From contig JAGVWJ010000040.1 of assembly GCA_018304385.1 (NCBI GenBank), forward strand, positions 1-13,760: a stretch of DNA of 13,760 nt, in the 5' to 3' direction. Every line of letters begins with the position of its first letter. The first letter of the stretch is position 1. The position numbers and the translations under genes are program-made. Below, in pieces: positions 68 through 8,872 of this stretch. This DNA is from Candidatus Micrarchaeota archaeon. GTDB taxonomy: Archaea > Micrarchaeota > Micrarchaeia > Anstonellales > Bilamarchaeaceae. The notes under the pieces are model-generated. The model was not told the origin of the DNA, searched no databases, and saw only the letters and a list, made by a program, of their open reading frames with translations.

Positions 68-970
68 ATGCAGTTCCCATGCGGTGATGTAACCATTGCT
101 TTAGACCATGGCAATGGAGATGTTAGTTTTGTTTCCCATGCACATAGCGATCATTTAAACGGAGTTAGAAGAAAAGAAAAAATTATTGCTAGTGAAGAGA
201 CGATTGCGCTTGCAGAACTAAAAGGAACGCAGCATAATCTGCAAAATGTTAAGCTAATTAACGCTGGCCATATTCTAGGAGCACGACAAATTATAGTTGA
301 GAATGATGGCAGCAAGGCTGTTTATACTGGTGATATTTGTTTAAGAGATAACTTAATTGCTAAAGGCGCAGATATCGTGGAATGCGACCACCTAATTATA
401 GAAGCAACATATGCTGATCCATTTTATAAATTTCCTCCTTATGAAGAGGTTTGCGAACAGATGGCAAAATGGATTAAGGAAAATTATGAAAAAGGTGCAA
501 ACATTGTTATTGGTTGTTATGAATTAGGAAAGGCGCAAGAACTAGTTAAGTTATTGAACAATTACTGCAATATCGCACCATTAGTTAATGAAAAGACGAA
601 TAGATTCTGTGAGGTTTATGAAAAATTTGGTGTGAAATTAGATCACGTACTTATAGGTAGTGATGAGGCAGAAGAGATGATGAAAAAACCATTTGTTGCG
701 CTTGTGCCTATGCGCAATGGCAAAAGATACTTTGCGCGGAAGATTGCTGAGGCATTTAATCGCGAAACGCTTGTTGCAATTGCCACCGGTTGGGCAATGA
801 GATATGGATTTAATGTGGATATGGCGTTCCCATTAAGCGATCATGCGGATCATCATGATTTGAAATATTATATAGAACAAAGCAATGCGAAAGAAGTTGA
901 ATTTTTCTCTGGAGATGGGTCCTCCTTGTTAGGTAATAAACCATTAAACCCAAGGCTATCTATTTTTTAA
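68..970 (+). CDS. MBL-fold metallo-hydrolase, beta-CASP family (putative RNA-processing or DNA-repair exonuclease)
   Basis: 300-aa ORF with the metallo-beta-lactamase/beta-CASP motifs in order: SHAHSDH (HxHxDH), AGHILG, YTGD, EATY, GKAQE and C-terminal SDHAD. A TTTAAA element at 41-46 lies about 22 nt before the ATG. Confidence 0.88.
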   Translation: MQFPCGDVTIALDHGNGDVSFVSHAHSDHLNGVRRKEKIIASEETIALAELKGTQHNLQNVKLINAGHILGARQIIVENDGSKAVYTGDICLRDNLIAKGADIVECDHLIIEATYADPFYKFPPYEEVCEQMAKWIKENYEKGANIVIGCYELGKAQELVKLLNNYCNIAPLVNEKTNRFCEVYEKFGVKLDHVLIGSDEAEEMMKKPFVALVPMRNGKRYFARKIAEAFNRETLVAIATGWAMRYGFNVDMAFPLSDHADHHDLKYYIEQSNAKEVEFFSGDGSSLLGNKPLNPRLSIF

Positions 971-1022: not shown

Positions 1023-1062
1023 GGCCACGATCAGTTTGAACTACGGTTCAAATCTCGTGGCC
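1023..1062 (+). ncRNA. Hairpin copying the tRNA-His acceptor stem (minihelix-like element in the tRNA 5' leader)
   Basis: GGCCACGA (1023-1030) pairs perfectly with TCGTGGCC (1055-1062). Both are identical to tRNA-His positions -1..7 and 66..73. The inner 7-bp stem TTTGAAC/GTTCAAA is closed by a cUACGg (UNCG) tetraloop. The structure is seen directly; its function is unknown. Confidence 0.6.
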
Positions 1063-1090
1063 GCATATTCGTTTGGCCACGATAGTGTAG

Positions 1091-1131
1091 AGCCTTGAAC
1101 AAAGTTCAAGATTTGTCCGCAAGGCGTACAA
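1091..1131 (+). other. tRNA intron 1 (41 nt, non-canonical position 15/16, D-loop)
   Basis: Relaxed BHB: central helix GTGT 1085-1088 / GTAC 1126-1129 (two G-U pairs), bulges AGA 1089-1091 and AAT 1130-1132, intron-side helix GCC(TT)/(AA)GGC. The exon-side helix is weak. Confidence 0.82.
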
Positions 1132-1153
1132 TGGTTAGCATGGAGGCCTGTGG

Positions 1154-1212
1154 TTGTGCATTTTAGGAAAAGGCACCCCAAAACGGGGAAGTTAATTAAA
1201 ACTTCAACAGAC
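1154..1212 (+). other. tRNA intron 2 (59 nt, canonical position 37/38)
   Basis: Canonical BHB: central helix CTGT 1148-1151 / ACAG 1207-1210, bulges GGT 1152-1154 and ACA 1211-1213. It is flanked by the anticodon stem and by TG/CA. Confidence 0.92.
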
Positions 1213-1227
1213 AGCCTTAGACCCGAG

Positions 1228-1285
1228 TCCCGCCTTTTAGGAAAAGGCGGCCTAAAACCGTCACTTCAAAAAAGTCGGGTGGGAT
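1228..1285 (+). other. tRNA intron 3 (58 nt, non-canonical position 53/54, T-arm)
   Basis: Full BHB: central helix CCCG 1222-1225 / TGGG 1280-1283, bulges AGT 1226-1228 and ATT 1284-1286. The intron-side helix is CCCG/CGGG and the exon-side helix is GA/TC. Confidence 0.9.
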
Positions 1286-1305
1286 TTCGAATCTCGGTCG
1301 TGGCC

Positions 1306-1318
1306 TTTTCTTTTTTTT
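1306..1318 (+). terminator. Oligo-T terminator-like tract after tRNA-His
   Basis: TTTTCTTTTTTTT starts immediately after C73. U-rich tracts are the established archaeal intrinsic termination signal. Confidence 0.65.
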
Positions 1319-1637
1319 AAACCTTAACCTCACATAATATATGCACACCCTTAAGTGCGGAATCAACTGCAGTATTGGATTTACTAAATTTCGCCCTAAG
1401 TTGCACAGTCGTGCCTGGTTCAACTCCGCGTGTCTGCAGATCTTTTGCTAGTCTCTCATAAAAAGTCTCAATGATAGTATTATCTAAAACTGCTTTAATT
1501 ATTGCAATTGGCACGCTTGTTTTAATGTCCAGTGGTTTTAGCATTCTTTTTCCGTTTTTTTCAAGTACTTTATAAAATAATAATTCTACTCTTTCATTTG
1601 CTACAGCTTGCCTCTCCATTCTTCTTAGATTAACCAT
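1317..1637 (-). CDS. Hypothetical protein (106 aa; alternative ATG at 1619)
   Basis: Fills the gap between the tRNA and the GGCT gene, has ordinary soluble-protein composition, and has an upstream TATA at 1681-1688. No family recognised. Confidence 0.65.
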   Translation of the reverse strand: MVNLRRMERQAVANERVELLFYKVLEKNGKRMLKPLDIKTSVPIAIIKAVLDNTIIETFYERLAKDLQTRGVEPGTTVQLRAKFSKSNTAVDSALKGVHILCEVKV

Positions 1638-1719: not shown

Positions 1720-2175
1720 GTGATGAGCATGGTTCTTTATTTCGCATACGGATCAAATATGTCAACCAAGCAGCTTCGAGAGCGAGGAATAAAACCAAAG
1801 CGTTCATTTGTAGCGGAGTTACGAAGGCACAAACTCGATTTTAATAAACAAGGAAGCGATGGTTCTGGAAAAGCAAATGTCGAACGCGATGAGAGCAACA
1901 AGGTTTTAGGTGTTGTTTTTGAAATTACACAAAGCGACTTGGCAGAATTAGATCGCTATGAAGGCGCTCCTACACATTACGGAAGAAAAAATGTTACAGT
2001 TATATCAGAAGAAGGAGAAAGCTGCAGAGCAATAACGTATGTTGCAGTTAGAAAAGCAGAAGGCCTTAGACCAAAGGCAGCATATGTTAGAAAAATTATA
2101 GAAGGTGCAGTAGAAGCTGGCTTGCCATGGACATATATTGAACCATTGCACATACTTTTATCTGGTTTGGAATAA
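1720..2175 (+). CDS. Gamma-glutamylcyclotransferase (GGCT/AIG2-like) family protein
   Basis: N-terminal YFAYGSNM signature, G.ANV, V.GVVFEI and LDRYEG with the catalytic Glu, then a Y.R motif. Start could be GTG 1720, ATG 1723 or ATG 1729. Confidence 0.88.
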   Translation: MMSMVLYFAYGSNMSTKQLRERGIKPKRSFVAELRRHKLDFNKQGSDGSGKANVERDESNKVLGVVFEITQSDLAELDRYEGAPTHYGRKNVTVISEEGESCRAITYVAVRKAEGLRPKAAYVRKIIEGAVEAGLPWTYIEPLHILLSGLE

Positions 2176-3381
2176 TTAGCTTCCGACCTGTTGCTTTGCG
2201 TATTCCATAAATTCAATTGCAATTGGCATAAAATTTTTAAGCGCTTCTCTGGAATACAAGTACCTGGTATTGTTAATAAGTTTATCAAGCAAGTCTTTAT
2301 TCATATAACTCTTATATACTCCTGCAAAGGCATTAGGCAAACCTGCCCAAAACATATATGGGTAAGCCTCTCTTTTCAGATATTGTTCTCTCTGGTCTTT
2401 TAGATCAATTCCTTCTTCTTTATACTTTTCTTGATAGTGCTTAGGAATTTCTATGTCAAATCGCTTAAATCTTAACCACGAAAAAAATATGAGGGCACTT
2501 GTTAATTCTTTTTTCTCATCACTAGTTAACCTAGTATACCGCTCTATAACGAAATCATAAACAAGGCTCATCGCACTGTGATGGTCTAGATGTTTTTCAA
2601 ATTCTTCGTCAACACCTCCTGCGTACAATAAGCTAGATAATGCATCTTGAAATTCTCTTCTGGATTGCGCACTTAGAGCTGTTGAATAGATATCGTGTAA
2701 AATTTCATGAACCACAACTTCTGATGATATTTCCTCTTTCTTTTTATAGTATAGTATATTATACTCGGAACATGCCTCGTCACATGCAGCAATTTCATAA
2801 CCGTGGGTGTCATAAATCTTAAAAGCTTCTGCTCTAGTATATTGTCCAGCAGCTCCACTTAATGATGTTTCTTCCTCTTCGGTAGGTTGAGAAATCAAAT
2901 AAACATTGTTTTCCAGAATTTCTATAACGGCTGGATTTCCCAAATTTAAACTATTTTCAATAGAAGGCACCACCTGTTCTTCCATGTACTTCCTCAAGTT
3001 AGCCCGAACCTTACCTGGAATTTTCTCTGGTGAAGAGTATGTGTTTCTCAAACCATCATATTTTGTTTGAGATGGAAATAGGCCTAAAGAAACATCTTCA
3101 ATCTCAAAACCGCCATTTTCTCTTTTCATTATTTTAAATGCTGGAAGCCATACCAAACCTTCTTTTGGAATTTCTTGGTGCTCCTCTTTTGGTGTAACTA
3201 GAAAGCGATCGTCCCCGCAACCAGTTATCATCCCAATAGCAATAAAGGGAGACAAAACAGCACCAACTGCATAGCCCGCAATTTTCTTCCATGTAGGAAT
3301 TTCTTTTTTAACCGGTATGATTATTGGTTTAAACTTTTCTTTTTCTTCATCTTCTGGCCTCTTTAATGCAGCTTTTACCAT
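2176..3381 (-). CDS. Membrane-anchored or lipoprotein-like protein with HEXXH zinc-metallopeptidase motif
   Basis: Charged N-terminus, hydrophobic segment IAGYAVGAVLSPFIAIGMITGC ending in Cys, VVVHEILHD (2695-2709) and a downstream REAY Glu as candidate third ligand. The family is not recognised. Confidence 0.65.
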   Translation of the reverse strand: MVKAALKRPEDEEKEKFKPIIIPVKKEIPTWKKIAGYAVGAVLSPFIAIGMITGCGDDRFLVTPKEEHQEIPKEGLVWLPAFKIMKRENGGFEIEDVSLGLFPSQTKYDGLRNTYSSPEKIPGKVRANLRKYMEEQVVPSIENSLNLGNPAVIEILENNVYLISQPTEEEETSLSGAAGQYTRAEAFKIYDTHGYEIAACDEACSEYNILYYKKKEEISSEVVVHEILHDIYSTALSAQSRREFQDALSSLLYAGGVDEEFEKHLDHHSAMSLVYDFVIERYTRLTSDEKKELTSALIFFSWLRFKRFDIEIPKHYQEKYKEEGIDLKDQREQYLKREAYPYMFWAGLPNAFAGVYKSYMNKDLLDKLINNTRYLYSREALKNFMPIAIEFMEYAKQQVGS

Positions 3382-7615: not shown

Positions 7616-8872
7616 TTATTTTTTCTTATTTTGTTTCTTAACTTCAGACTTACTCTCTTGTTTTTTGTAAACAAATGGAACTAGAATGCTAGTTAGAATG
7701 ATAGTAAGGATAATTATATTAAAGGCGATTTCTGGAAGATTCGTAAGTTTTGAAATTAAATCTTGCCCATTTGTTACCTGTGCTTTTTGTAAATATGATT
7801 GCACAGTTGTTAACGGATAGGTAGCAAGAACTGCTGTTGCTAATCCACGCGGGCTTATTACAGTTATTATATTACTATATGGGGATAATTCAGAACTTCT
7901 GGTTACAAATTTTGTTATTAGGTATCTTATCAATAAGAAAGAAATAACTAGCCCTAGTGCAATTATAAAATTATTAATATTACTAAAATTTACAATAATA
8001 CCTAAGAAGACAAAGAAAAAGGTTCTTATTATAAATGAAATTTCTGTATGAAACTCTCTTATAAAAATCCTTTCACTAGCCTCTTCTATTCTTATTATTT
8101 TTCTTACCAAGTTCTCATTACCAAGCATTATGCTAAATATTAAGACACCTATCGCCCCGCTACCTCCAAAAAACTCTGAGAGCGCATAAAGAATTAAGAT
8201 TACCCCTAACATTACCATATAGCTATATCCTTTTTCAATCCTTGAGAAAATAGAGATAAATAAAATACCGCCAACTATGCCAACTAGCGTACCAACAGAA
8301 AAGGTACTTAATATACCTTGACCAATCATCTGCACATCAATAAAACCAGATAATAGATTTTGAGTCAGCACTATTGTAAGAATAATTGAGAAAATATCTG
8401 TTATTGAAGATTCTAATGTTAAGAATCTACCAACATCTTTTGGAAGTTCTAATCCTTTTAATATAGATATAGTAGTAGTAGACCCAATGCCTCCTGCAAT
8501 TGCACCTACTATGGCACCTATAAGAAAATCAAAACCAAACCCTTGCATTAAAAATCCTGCTGCAAACATACTTGCAACAGTTATCAAAATCGACATTAGA
8601 AATATTCTGCCGCTTTTGAATAGAACATCTAGGATATTAAGTGTCAGTCCACCATCAAAAAGTAAAATTATCAGTGCAAGCGTCCCAAATAAGCTTTGTA
8701 GTCCTGTTAGATCAGCTACATCTACATAACCACTTACTTTTAGTAAATATCCGATTAAAAGAAGCATAATTGTACTAGGTATGCTAAATTTTTTTGAGAA
8801 TAACTCTCCTATATACCCAATTATAATAATACCGCCAAATACTAAGAACGCACCTTCAATTCCTATTGCCAT
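7616..8872 (-). CDS. Cation:proton antiporter, CPA1/NhaP type
   Basis: About 12-13 hydrophobic helices, with ILLFDGGL, LESSITD (ES..xD motif), F...FVFLG and PRGLATAVLA motifs typical of NhaP-like CPA1 transporters. Confidence 0.88.
   Translation of the reverse strand: MAIGIEGAFLVFGGIIIIGYIGELFSKKFSIPSTIMLLLIGYLLKVSGYVDVADLTGLQSLFGTLALIILLFDGGLTLNILDVLFKSGRIFLMSILITVASMFAAGFLMQGFGFDFLIGAIVGAIAGGIGSTTTISILKGLELPKDVGRFLTLESSITDIFSIILTIVLTQNLLSGFIDVQMIGQGILSTFSVGTLVGIVGGILFISIFSRIEKGYSYMVMLGVILILYALSEFFGGSGAIGVLIFSIMLGNENLVRKIIRIEEASERIFIREFHTEISFIIRTFFFVFLGIIVNFSNINNFIIALGLVISFLLIRYLITKFVTRSSELSPYSNIITVISPRGLATAVLATYPLTTVQSYLQKAQVTNGQDLISKLTNLPEIAFNIIILTIILTSILVPFVYKKQESKSEVKKQNKKK

What the first reader, a model, noticed from the sequence alone, without database searches (positions are those of the whole stretch)
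1154..1285. Introns 2 and 3 are homologous four-way-junction RNAs sharing an exact 14-nt motif
Seen: TTTTAGGAAAAGGC occurs at 1161-1174 and 1235-1248 (16/17 with flanks), and the introns are 59 and 58 nt. Intron 2 folds as closing helix plus hairpins 1157-1175 (TTTT-AGG-AAAA core), 1176-1188 (CCCC-AAAAC-GGGG) and 1189-1204 (AAGTT/AACTT), with no unpaired junction bases. Intron 3 folds as closing helix plus hairpins 1233-1247 (same TTTT-AGG-AAAA core), 1248-1260 (CGG-CCTAAAA-CCG) and 1263-1275 (ACTT/AAGT, strands swapped relative to intron 2). Splicing needs only the BHB, so this conserved inner cloverleaf is unexplained. Established: excised archaeal BHB introns can be circularised, and intron transfer between tRNA sites has been proposed. 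Inference: these may be a family of structured, possibly mobile or functional circular intron RNAs copied between positions.
Basis: partly seen in the sequence, partly recalled or inferred. Interest (0 to 1): 0.78.

Follow-up and report, generated by a model that had tools for sequence, protein, structure and literature searches.

The report
Hairpin-capped mobile tRNA introns, Micrarchaeota
Two of the three introns in this histidine tRNA gene belong to a large, apparently undescribed family of short hairpin-capped elements that interrupt tRNA and rRNA genes in either orientation across the tiny Micrarchaeota archaea, which gives a concrete handle on how archaeal tRNA introns arise and spread.

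Summary
The exact 14-mer lies at 1161-1174 and 1235-1248, inside introns of 59 and 58 nt at positions 37/38 and 53/54 of a three-intron tRNA-His(GUG) gene (1075-1305).

The shared motif is not private to this gene. It is the invariant core of a 5'-terminal "cap":
- a covarying 5-6 bp stem around T4-AGG-A4;
- then a CC(N)A4C linker.

A covariance model finds 33 caps in this genome. It finds 34-69 in three related genomes and 0-9 in 37 other relatives. A pattern scan finds more than 100 stretches, almost all in Micrarchaeota MAGs.

Caps sit 1-2 nt inside the 5' splice site. As a reverse complement they end at the 3' splice site. They also occur in a 23S rRNA intron and outside tRNA and rRNA genes. 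Each His intron is closer to copies in other tRNA genes (30/32) than to the other (24/32).

Orthologous tRNA-His genes gain, lose and shift these introns.

The "four-way junction" is not a family feature. The conserved unit is cap hairpin, single-stranded linker, variable hairpin and an exon-pairing tail.

A circular-RNA function is untested, and the two orientations argue against it.

This scan found the same family before in other Micrarchaeota genomes. I found no published description.

The parts
1075..1305 (+). tRNA-His(GUG) gene with three introns. Exons are 1075-1090 (including G-1), 1132-1153, 1213-1227 and 1286-1305 (C73 at 1305).
   Evidence: ARAGORN calls a 74-nt tRNA-His(gtg) after removal of the three introns. 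Intron-less orthologues of 72-73 nt exist in the same family.
1091..1131 (+). Intron 1 (41 nt, D-loop 15/16). It belongs to a different intron family and has a relaxed splice motif: a 4-bp central helix with two G-U pairs, a 6-bp inner helix and no outer helix.
   Evidence: Related introns lie at the same site in tRNA-His of G004 and G064 and in tRNA-Asp of G002. The boundary could shift by 1 nt.
1154..1212 (+). Intron 2 (59 nt, canonical 37/38) with a strict splice motif: outer helix 5 bp, central helix 1148-1151 with 1207-1210, inner helix 2 bp.
1156..1176 (+). Cap hairpin H1 of intron 2: outer stem 1156-1160 with 1172-1176 (one A.G mismatch, 1160/1172), T4 1161-1164 paired to A4 1168-1171, loop AGG 1165-1167.
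   Evidence: Covariance model R1, 50.8 bits; alignment A1; covariation.
1177..1184 (+). Conserved linker of intron 2 (CCC-A4-C). Here, 1177-1179 can pair with 1185-1187.
   Evidence: A4-C is invariant in alignment A1. The small hairpin is shared with the orthologues in G053 and G004 without covariation.
1188..1205 (+). Variable second hairpin of intron 2 (6 bp, loop containing GTTAAT-like letters).
   Evidence: Minimum-free-energy fold. The G053 orthologue keeps it with one compensatory pair (read by eye). Similar loops occur in other members.
1228..1285 (+). Intron 3 (58 nt, T-arm 53/54) with a strict splice motif: outer helix 2 bp, central helix 1222-1225 with 1280-1283 (one G-U), inner helix 1229-1232 with 1276-1279, which competes with H1.
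1230..1250 (+). Cap hairpin H1 of intron 3: 5-bp G/C stem, T4 1235-1238 paired to A4 1242-1245, loop AGG 1239-1241.
   Evidence: Covariance model R1, 52.2 bits; alignment A1. Folding with H1 forced costs about 2 kcal/mol over the best fold.
1251..1258 (+). Linker of intron 3 (CCT-A4-C). It is a perfect complement of T4-AGG (1235-1241), so an alternative 7-bp helix is possible.
   Evidence: Sequence. Fold with the alternative helix forced, -15.6 kcal/mol. The T-run and the linker A-run have matching lengths across the family.
1263..1275 (+). Variable hairpin of intron 3 (4 bp), followed by the exon-pairing tail 1276-1285.
   Evidence: Constrained fold. A comparable layout is seen in the 53/54 intron of G097.
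1023..1066 (+). Upstream hairpin whose 8-bp base copies the tRNA-His acceptor stem. It is not part of the intron family and is listed for context.
   Evidence: Sequence. Similar hairpins with different inner stems lie upstream of tRNA-His in six genera.

Best explanation
Introns 2 and 3 are two diverged members, from different subfamilies, of a Micrarchaeota-wide family of short hairpin-capped elements. These elements live as endonuclease-spliced (bulge-helix-bulge type) introns in tRNA and rRNA genes, and some copies lie outside tRNA and rRNA genes.

Shown:
- The shared 14-mer is the invariant core of a terminal cap. The cap is a covarying stem around T4-AGG-A4, followed by a CC(N)A4C linker.
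- The cap begins 1-2 nt after the 5' cut. As a reverse complement it ends at the 3' cut. Many elements in other genomes carry a cap at both ends.
- The rest of each intron is a variable hairpin plus a short tail that pairs with the upstream exon to make the 4-bp central helix.
- The genome encodes the broad-specificity three-unit (epsilon2) splicing endonuclease.
- Orthologous tRNA-His genes differ in which of these introns they carry and where.

Inferred:
- The cap hairpin supplies the helix next to the splice-site bulge. It takes the place of the usual intron-internal helix, so an inserted element can be cut out at many sites and in either orientation.
- The element spreads at the DNA level by an unknown route, and insertions survive only where splicing restores the RNA.
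- The invariant core and linker serve that spreading or a bound factor, not a shared function of the excised RNA.
For: Family:
- Nine exact copies of the 14-mer and 23 of the 11-mer core occur in the genome.
- The covariance model gives 33 hits in this genome, none in a long open frame except two weak cases.

Cap hairpin:
- In 20 distinct own-genome copies, 97.8% of cells pair and all 5 outer pairs change on both sides; 0/500 shuffles reach the observed percentage paired, number of cells changed on both sides or covariation score.
- In 104 distinct copies from other MAGs, 98.7% of cells pair, with 137 double-change cells against 32 +/- 6 in shuffles.

Terminal position and orientation:
- Sense copies start at intron nucleotides 1-3.
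- Antisense copies are verified in tRNA-Glu(UUC) on contig 44, by deletion scan plus ARAGORN.
- An antisense copy also lies in tRNA-Tyr on contig 59, where ARAGORN finds the intron natively and the model hits the opposite strand.
- Two-capped introns occur in seven other MAGs and in tRNA-Ser(GGA) of this genome.

Cap in place of the inner helix:
- Seven of 9 solved sense introns have an inner helix of 0-1 bp while the outer helix is 5 bp and the central helix 4 bp.

Enzyme:
- A 399-aa endonuclease matches PDB 4FZ2 at E = 1e-129 over its full length. That enzyme type cuts relaxed motifs at non-canonical sites (PMC3239211).

Turnover:
- Cap counts are 33, 42, 34 and 69 in four genomes and 0-9 in 37 relatives.
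- tRNA-His has no introns in most species searched of three genera.
- The 37/38 capped intron is in G000, G001, G004 and in only one of 11 tRNA-His genes recovered in genus g19.
- The T-arm capped intron is at 53/54 in G000 and G097 but at 59/60 in G001, and is absent in G004.

Other:
- Each intron has nearer relatives in other genes than in its neighbour.
- Stems are almost purely Watson-Crick: 907 Watson-Crick cells, 6 G.T, 3 A.C, 9 other. This fits an element that must pair on both strands.
Against: - No transposase or other mobilising gene was identified. IS200-type Y1 transposase was not found in the four cap-rich assemblies (they are 75-92% complete).
- No target-site duplication or common insertion sequence was seen at the cap end (by eye).
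- Splicing, cleavage sites and the role of the cap hairpin are predictions; no RNA data could be obtained.
- For intron 3, thermodynamic folding prefers structures without the full cap hairpin.
- Only 7 of the 26 tRNA-associated copies were confirmed by rebuilding the tRNA. The rest were assigned by reading flanking tRNA features.
- Patchy distribution could also come from old introns with many losses.
Confidence: 0.72

Rival explanations
1. One reading: the introns are conserved four-way-junction RNAs whose inner cloverleaf has a function of its own after excision, for example as a stable circular RNA.
For: - Excised archaeal introns of this type are circularised in several species (PMC12558985).
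- Intron 2's three hairpins are its best fold, and only 4.6% of shuffles give three hairpins.
- The 37/38 orthologues share the first two hairpins.
- The core and linker are invariant, which needs an explanation beyond helix formation.
Against: - The junction drawings lie 6-11 kcal/mol above the best folds.
- The closing helix is 0-1 bp in 7 of 9 family introns.
- The linker is unpaired in most members.
- Copies occur in both orientations and so give different RNAs.
- Copies also occur outside tRNA and rRNA genes.
- G.U pairs are as rare as other mismatches.
Confidence: 0.1
2. The introns are ancient and vertically inherited. Their similarity reflects shared descent plus selection for endonuclease recognition, and the patchy distribution comes only from repeated loss.
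For: - The 37/38 capped intron of tRNA-His sits at the same site with the same tail in three genera.
- Intron loss is easy once a spliced copy can be recombined back.
Against: - Near-identical caps (30/32) lie in unrelated tRNA genes, at D-loop, anticodon-loop and T-loop sites, in both orientations, and in 23S rRNA.
- Two genomes of one genus place the T-arm intron at 53/54 and at 59/60.
- Counts jump from 0 to 69 between genera of one family.
Confidence: 0.1
3. The cap is first of all a DNA-level or transcript-leader signal, such as a protein-binding, promoter/leader or processing site. It is reused in front of genes and tRNAs, and its presence in introns is secondary.
For: - Reverse-complement caps abut position -1/+1 of tRNA-His in G001 and G004, and of two tRNAs in this genome.
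- One copy lies just upstream of the start codon of an open reading frame on contig 20 that looks like the stalk protein P1 gene; this is my own reading of its first residues and was not run against a family library.
- The stems are purely Watson-Crick.
Against: - Twenty-seven of 33 copies in this genome lie in or against tRNA or rRNA genes, mostly inside them.
- No binding factor is known, and no promoter test was done.
Confidence: 0.08

Closest known systems
Transposed tRNA introns of Thermoproteales (Fujishima et al. 2010, as summarised in PMC4090602)
   Same: [quoted passage not shown] They are read as intron gain by copying, probably at the DNA level, and the mechanism is unknown.
   Different: - The lineage differs (DPANN Micrarchaeota) and so does the endonuclease type (epsilon2, not the heterotetramer).
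- This family has a defined terminal hairpin cap with an invariant core.
- It occurs in both orientations and as two-capped elements.
- It also occurs in rRNA introns and outside tRNA and rRNA genes.
Multi-intron tRNA genes and the epsilon2 endonuclease of Ca. Micrarchaeum acidiphilum ARMAN-2 (PMC3239211, PMC3488258)
   Same: Same phylum. The tRNAs are heavily interrupted, including 53/54 and 59/60 T-loop introns. This genome has the same three-unit enzyme (E = 1e-129 to 4FZ2), which cuts strict and relaxed motifs.
   Different: The passages I read in those papers describe positions and the enzyme. They do not describe a shared intron sequence family, a cap hairpin or orientation.
Heavily interrupted tRNA genes of Asgard archaea (bioRxiv 10.64898/2026.10.13.758758)
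   Same: Introns are gained repeatedly in single lineages and sit at splice-competent sites.
   Different: That study found no general route of arrival and no general role for copying between tRNA genes. Here, copying of a recognisable element is evident.
Miniature inverted-repeat elements, including hairpin-ended derivatives of IS200/IS605
   Same: They are short, non-coding and multi-copy. They have hairpin-bearing inverted ends, occur in both orientations, and show bursts in some genomes.
   Different: No partner transposase was found and no target duplication was seen. Most copies sit inside RNA genes and must be removed by RNA splicing.
Functional intron RNAs such as the box C/D guide in the archaeal tRNA-Trp intron (cited in PMC4090602 and PMC12558985)
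   Same: A structured RNA is carried in an endonuclease-spliced tRNA intron and is circularised after excision.
   Different: Introns 2 and 3 have no C or D box letters (read directly). The family is not tied to one tRNA or to one orientation.

Membership tests
Archaeal endonuclease-spliced (bulge-helix-bulge) tRNA introns | Removing the insert restores a canonical tRNA. | tested here: met
   ARAGORN calls tRNA-His(gtg), 74 nt, only after the three inserts are removed.
Archaeal endonuclease-spliced (bulge-helix-bulge) tRNA introns | Two 3-nt bulges on opposite strands, separated by a 4-bp helix and flanked by helices, with the cuts at the exon-intron borders. | tested here: met
   Intron 2 has outer/central/inner helices of 5/4/2 bp and intron 3 of 2/4/4 bp. 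Intron 1 meets only a relaxed form.
Archaeal endonuclease-spliced (bulge-helix-bulge) tRNA introns | The genome encodes a splicing endonuclease able to cut non-canonical sites. | tested here: met
   A 399-aa three-unit enzyme matches 4FZ2 at E = 1e-129.
Archaeal endonuclease-spliced (bulge-helix-bulge) tRNA introns | Spliced mature tRNA and excised intron are observed. | not testable with these tools
Transposed intron families (Thermoproteales type) | Near-identical intron sequence in different isoacceptors and at different positions of one genome. | tested here: met
   Caps lie in His, Ala, Asp, Arg, Glu, Gly, Ser, Tyr and other tRNA genes at D-loop, 37/38 and T-arm sites.
Transposed intron families (Thermoproteales type) | Host lineage is Thermoproteales with a heterotetrameric endonuclease. 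| tested here: not met
   Record titles name Micrarchaeota, and the enzyme is of the epsilon2 type.
Miniature inverted-repeat transposable elements | Terminal inverted repeats. | tested here: inconclusive
   Two-capped copies have inverted caps. Introns 2 and 3 have one cap only.
Miniature inverted-repeat transposable elements | Target-site duplication and a cognate transposase. | tested here: not met
   No common flank or duplication was seen at the cap end (by eye). No Y1 transposase was found in the four cap-rich genomes. Other transposase families were not searched.
Any curated RNA family (Rfam 15) | A match at the gathering score. | tested here: not met
   There is no match in the window. 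In eight other cap-bearing loci the only match is the 23S rRNA.
Box C/D guide RNAs carried in introns | C box (RUGAUGA) and D box (CUGA). | tested here: not met
   Neither box is present in 1154-1212 or 1228-1285 (read).

The most novel reading that the evidence does not exclude
The cap is a portable, orientation-independent splice-site cassette at the end of a small mobile DNA element. Wherever the element lands in a structured RNA gene, its terminal hairpin plus one or two flanking bases rebuilds a helix-bulge-helix that the epsilon2 endonuclease can cut, so a new intron is born in one step. The invariant T4-AGG-A4 core and the A-run linker, whose lengths change together, would form a second, alternative helix or a recognition site used in copying the element.
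Probability: 0.35. Interest if true: 0.85.

Novelty: new variant of a known kind. Interest (0 to 1): 0.68.

Why it matters
How archaeal tRNA introns arrive at new sites is an open question. The Thermoproteales case has no known mechanism (PMC4090602), and a 2026 Asgard census concludes that "how they arrive remains open".

This family has several properties that make the question testable:
- It is sequence-defined and abundant, and it appears to have turned over since related genera and species diverged.
- It has a recognisable end structure and occurs in both orientations.
- Some copies lie outside tRNA and rRNA genes.
- The lineage has a solved, recombinantly active splicing enzyme.

With these, one can test at the bench and in metagenomes whether a small DNA element can create a spliceable intron on insertion.

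There is also a practical point. Standard tRNA finders recover only 2-4 tRNAs in this 1.5-Mb genome.

Tried and rejected
- **Standard detectors.** ARAGORN and Rfam find nothing in the window. An Rfam run at the E-value threshold failed internally.
- **My splice-motif-plus-ARAGORN solver.**
  - The first version returned nothing because ARAGORN mishandled the large multi-FASTA file. It was fixed by concatenating the sequences.
  - Even then it solved only about half of the loci and gave some false solutions, such as a "tRNA-Stop". Most contexts were therefore read by eye.
- **IS200/IS605 single-strand transposition.** Rejected as the explanation for now. No Y1 transposase is present in the four cap-rich genomes, although it is present in several cap-poor relatives.
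- **Strain-level comparison.** A search of metagenome contigs with the upstream gene's protein found no relatives.
- **Forced alternative helix in intron 2.** That part used coordinates one base off. I disregard it; the intron 3 value is valid.
- **Three-stranded fold.** A linker that starts at the foot of the hairpin cannot easily reach its T:A part.
- **Wobble-pair asymmetry.** Used as a test of RNA-level versus DNA-level selection, it has little power: 6 G.T, 3 A.C and 9 other mismatches in 925 cells.
- **Integrase next to the gene.** None was found in the neighbouring ORFs 68-970 (+), 1317-1637 (-), 1720-2175 (+) and 2176-3381 (-).

Full report
**1. What is in the window**

Positions 1075-1305 (+) hold a tRNA-His(GUG) gene in four pieces. 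ARAGORN and Rfam see nothing there.

I listed every pair of positions that can form a helix, a 3-nt bulge, a 4-bp helix, a 3-nt bulge and a helix. I then spliced the combinations and ran ARAGORN on the products. One combination leaves no residual intron:
- 1091-1131 (41 nt, position 15/16)
- 1154-1212 (59 nt, position 37/38)
- 1228-1285 (58 nt, position 53/54)

The product is a 74-nt tRNA-His with the G-1:C73 pair.

The genome is 1.53 Mb with 36.5% G+C and is 89% complete. ARAGORN finds only 2-4 tRNAs in it, and the Rfam tRNA model finds four above its cut-off. Interruption of tRNA genes is therefore the rule here.

Earlier notes of this scan and the record titles of the related loci place the genome in Micrarchaeota.

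**2. The observation**

The 14-mer is present exactly at 1161-1174 and 1235-1248.
- No mononucleotide shuffle of the two introns gave a common word longer than 12 (5000 trials).
- The global alignment has 36/60 identical columns. Its score lies far outside the shuffles.

The introns are homologous.

The drawn four-way junctions fare less well:

|---|---|---|
| 2 | -7.0 kcal/mol | -13.0 kcal/mol, three adjacent hairpins, no closing helix |
| 3 | -9.5 kcal/mol | -20.9 kcal/mol, a different long-range fold |

**3. The motif is the core of a genome-wide module**

The 14-mer occurs nine times in the genome and its 11-nt core 23 times.

The copies share these parts in order:
- two leading T;
- a 5-6 bp stem of variable sequence;
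- invariant T4, A-G-G (sometimes with one more base), A4;
- the closing stem strand;
- a conserved linker, CC(N)A4C.

Evidence for the stem:
- In 20 distinct copies, 97.8% of stem cells pair, and each of the five outer pairs shows changes on both sides.
- No shuffle reaches the observed percentage paired, number of cells changed on both sides or covariation score, and sliding the partner destroys the signal.

A covariance model (R1) gives 33 hits at E < 0.01 in this genome. Apart from two weak cases, none lies in a long open frame.

**4. Where the copies sit**

I read the flanks of all 33 copies.

| Context | Copies |
|---|---|
| Inside tRNA genes, same direction as the tRNA | 17 |
| Inside or abutting tRNA genes, opposite direction | 9 |
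| 5' end of an intron in the 23S rRNA, sense | 1 |
| Not assigned | 6 |

One of the unassigned copies lies just before a start codon.

I confirmed seven tRNA contexts by rebuilding the tRNA:
- His, two copies;
- Ala(CGC), Arg(UCG) and Glu(CUC), all sense;
- Glu(UUC), antisense;
- Tyr, antisense. ARAGORN finds this intron unaided, and the model hits the other strand.

Sense copies begin at intron nucleotides 1-3. Antisense copies end at the 3' junction.

**5. Family architecture**

Eleven sense introns of 53-61 nt were compared, nine from this genome and two from relatives. In 9 of 11 the minimum-free-energy fold has the same plan:
- cap hairpin;
- unpaired linker;
- one variable hairpin, often with a GTTAAT-like or GCTAA-like loop;
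- an unpaired tail.

The tail pairs with the four exon bases before the 5' bulge. In T-loop introns it pairs with the T-loop itself.

Nine of these introns could be solved by the splice-motif test. In 7 of the 9 the usual intron-internal helix is 0-1 bp, while the outer helix is 5 bp and the central helix 4 bp. The cap hairpin therefore stands where that inner helix would be.

This is my main mechanistic inference: the cap provides the helix on the intron side of the splice-site bulge. It is not shown.

In the reverse orientation the hairpin plus two A precede the cut, which again gives a helix next to a bulge.

The small hairpin 1177-1187 is shared, with identical letters, only by the orthologous 37/38 introns in G053 and G004. 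The hairpin 1188-1205 is kept in G053 with one compensatory pair (by eye).

**6. Two caps, and the linker**

In seven other Micrarchaeota MAGs and in tRNA-Ser(GGA) of this genome, introns carry a sense cap at one end and a reverse-complement cap at the other. The two linkers face each other and are complementary. Such elements are nearly palindromic, which explains why single caps turn up in both orientations.

Across 103 parsed copies, the T-run of the hairpin and the A-run of the linker have the same length:

| T-run / linker A-run | Copies |
|---|---|
| 4 / 4 | 90 |
| 5 / 5 | 9, with seven different outer stems |
| 6 / 6 | 1 |
| unequal | 3 |

The sample was partly chosen by a pattern that fixes the 4/4 form, so this is suggestive only.

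It fits either linker-to-linker pairing or an alternative helix between T4-AGG and the linker. In intron 3 that alternative helix is a perfect 7 bp, and forcing it gives -15.6 kcal/mol.

Stems are almost purely Watson-Crick: 907 cells, against 6 G.T, 3 A.C and 9 other. One would expect this if both strands must fold.

**7. Distribution**

Among 40 relatives:
- The two species of the same genus have 42 and 34 caps.
- One other genus has 69.
- The remaining 37 genomes have 0-9.

Of the 80 listed, nearly all are Micrarchaeota MAGs from many habitats. A few single hits in bacteria are in line with chance.

Four viral-collection contigs match. Two of them, from giant-virus bins, hold arrays of cap-like hairpins. 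I could not check that these contigs are viral.

**8. Turnover at tRNA-His itself**

I fetched the tRNA-His gene from 30 genomes of the family (29 relatives and this genome), and the gene could be delimited in 28.
- Most species searched of three genera have an uninterrupted 72-73-nt gene.
- The capped 37/38 intron is in G000, G001 (swollen to about 165 nt by nested hairpins), G004 and G053. G053 is one of only 11 tRNA-His genes recovered in its genus.
- The capped T-arm intron is at 53/54 in G000 and G097. G097 has a further intron at 58/59.
- In G001 the T-arm intron is at 59/60, with a nearly identical cap but a different tail. G004 has none.
- The D-loop intron is present in G000 and G004 and absent in G001. 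Relatives of this intron sit in tRNA-Asp of G002.

Each matches copies in other tRNA genes at 30/32. Neither was copied from the other.

**9. Machinery**

- The genome encodes a 399-aa splicing endonuclease that matches the solved ARMAN-2 enzyme over its whole length (E = 1e-129).
- That enzyme cuts strict and relaxed motifs at 37/38 and 59/60 in vitro. ARMAN-2 tRNAs have introns at 53/54 and 59/60 (PMC3239211).
- An RNase P RNA is present.
- No IS200-type transposase is found in the cap-rich genomes.

**10. Comparison with what is known**

Similar introns at different positions of different tRNAs are known from Thermoproteales. There they are read as DNA-level intron transposition of unknown mechanism (PMC4090602).

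Multi-intron tRNAs and the epsilon2 enzyme are known for Micrarchaeota (PMC3239211, PMC3488258).

I found no paper in the searchable library that describes this cap, its two orientations or its spread. That library is incomplete.

The same family has been reported several times by this scan in other Micrarchaeota genomes. One of those notes said its copies were always co-oriented with the host tRNA, which is not so in this genome.

**11. Verdict**

- The motif and the homology are real.
- The structural drawing is only partly right.
- The functional circular-RNA idea is untested and made less likely by the orientation data.
- How the element moves, and what reads the invariant core, remain unknown.

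Noticed in passing
window 1023-1066 (+); L165, L168, L170-L173, L183, L185, L186 upstream of tRNA-His: A hairpin whose 8-bp base repeats the tRNA-His acceptor stem (including G-1:C73) lies 8-25 nt upstream of the real gene. Comparable hairpins stand upstream of tRNA-His in six genera of the family. They keep the same base but have different, still complementary, inner stems, so this looks like a conserved leader structure rather than a local remnant.
   Followed up: partly
L023 (G001) and L022/L184 (G004) just 5' of tRNA-His; own genome contig 55 near 2626-2661 and contig 33 near 8307-8343: Reverse-complement caps end exactly at position -1/+1 of some tRNA genes, with the same junction as at intron 3' splice sites. 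This raises the possibility that some 5' leaders are removed by the splicing endonuclease, although an RNase P RNA is present.
   Followed up: no
window 1091-1131; L026 (G002 tRNA-Asp); L164 (G064); L025 (G012, non-tRNA context): Intron 1 belongs to a second intron family with conserved ends and a TTGAAC/GTTCAA-type hairpin. It occupies the 15/16 site of tRNA-His or tRNA-Asp in different genomes. In this genome the same site of tRNA-Asp holds a capped intron instead. A 24-nt identical stretch occurs outside any tRNA in G012.
   Followed up: partly
whole genome G000: ARAGORN finds only 2-4 tRNA genes and the Rfam tRNA model only four above its cut-off in a 1.53-Mb, 89%-complete genome. Several tRNAs appear to carry three or more introns, including composite ones and further families (for example inserts starting GCCAT in T-loops, and an ATAGCCCC...GGGGCT type).
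   Followed up: partly
L154 2100-2300 and L157 4100-4350 (IMG/VR giant-virus bins): Arrays of cap-like hairpins (the T4-AGG-A4 type and its reverse complement, with A4C linkers) occur on two contigs binned as giant-virus MAGs. Whether the contigs are viral or mis-binned was not checked.
   Followed up: partly
L023 1504-1788 (G001 tRNA-His 37/38 intron): The orthologue of intron 2 in the sister species is about 165 nt long. Further perfect hairpins are nested inside the cap stem and after the linker, so these introns grow by insertion of hairpins into hairpins.
   Followed up: no
own genome contig 20, 41772-41807 (-): A cap copy lies between two open reading frames and directly upstream of a ribosome-binding site and a start codon. 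From its first residues the downstream gene looks like ribosomal stalk protein P1; this is my own reading and was not run against a family library.
   Followed up: no
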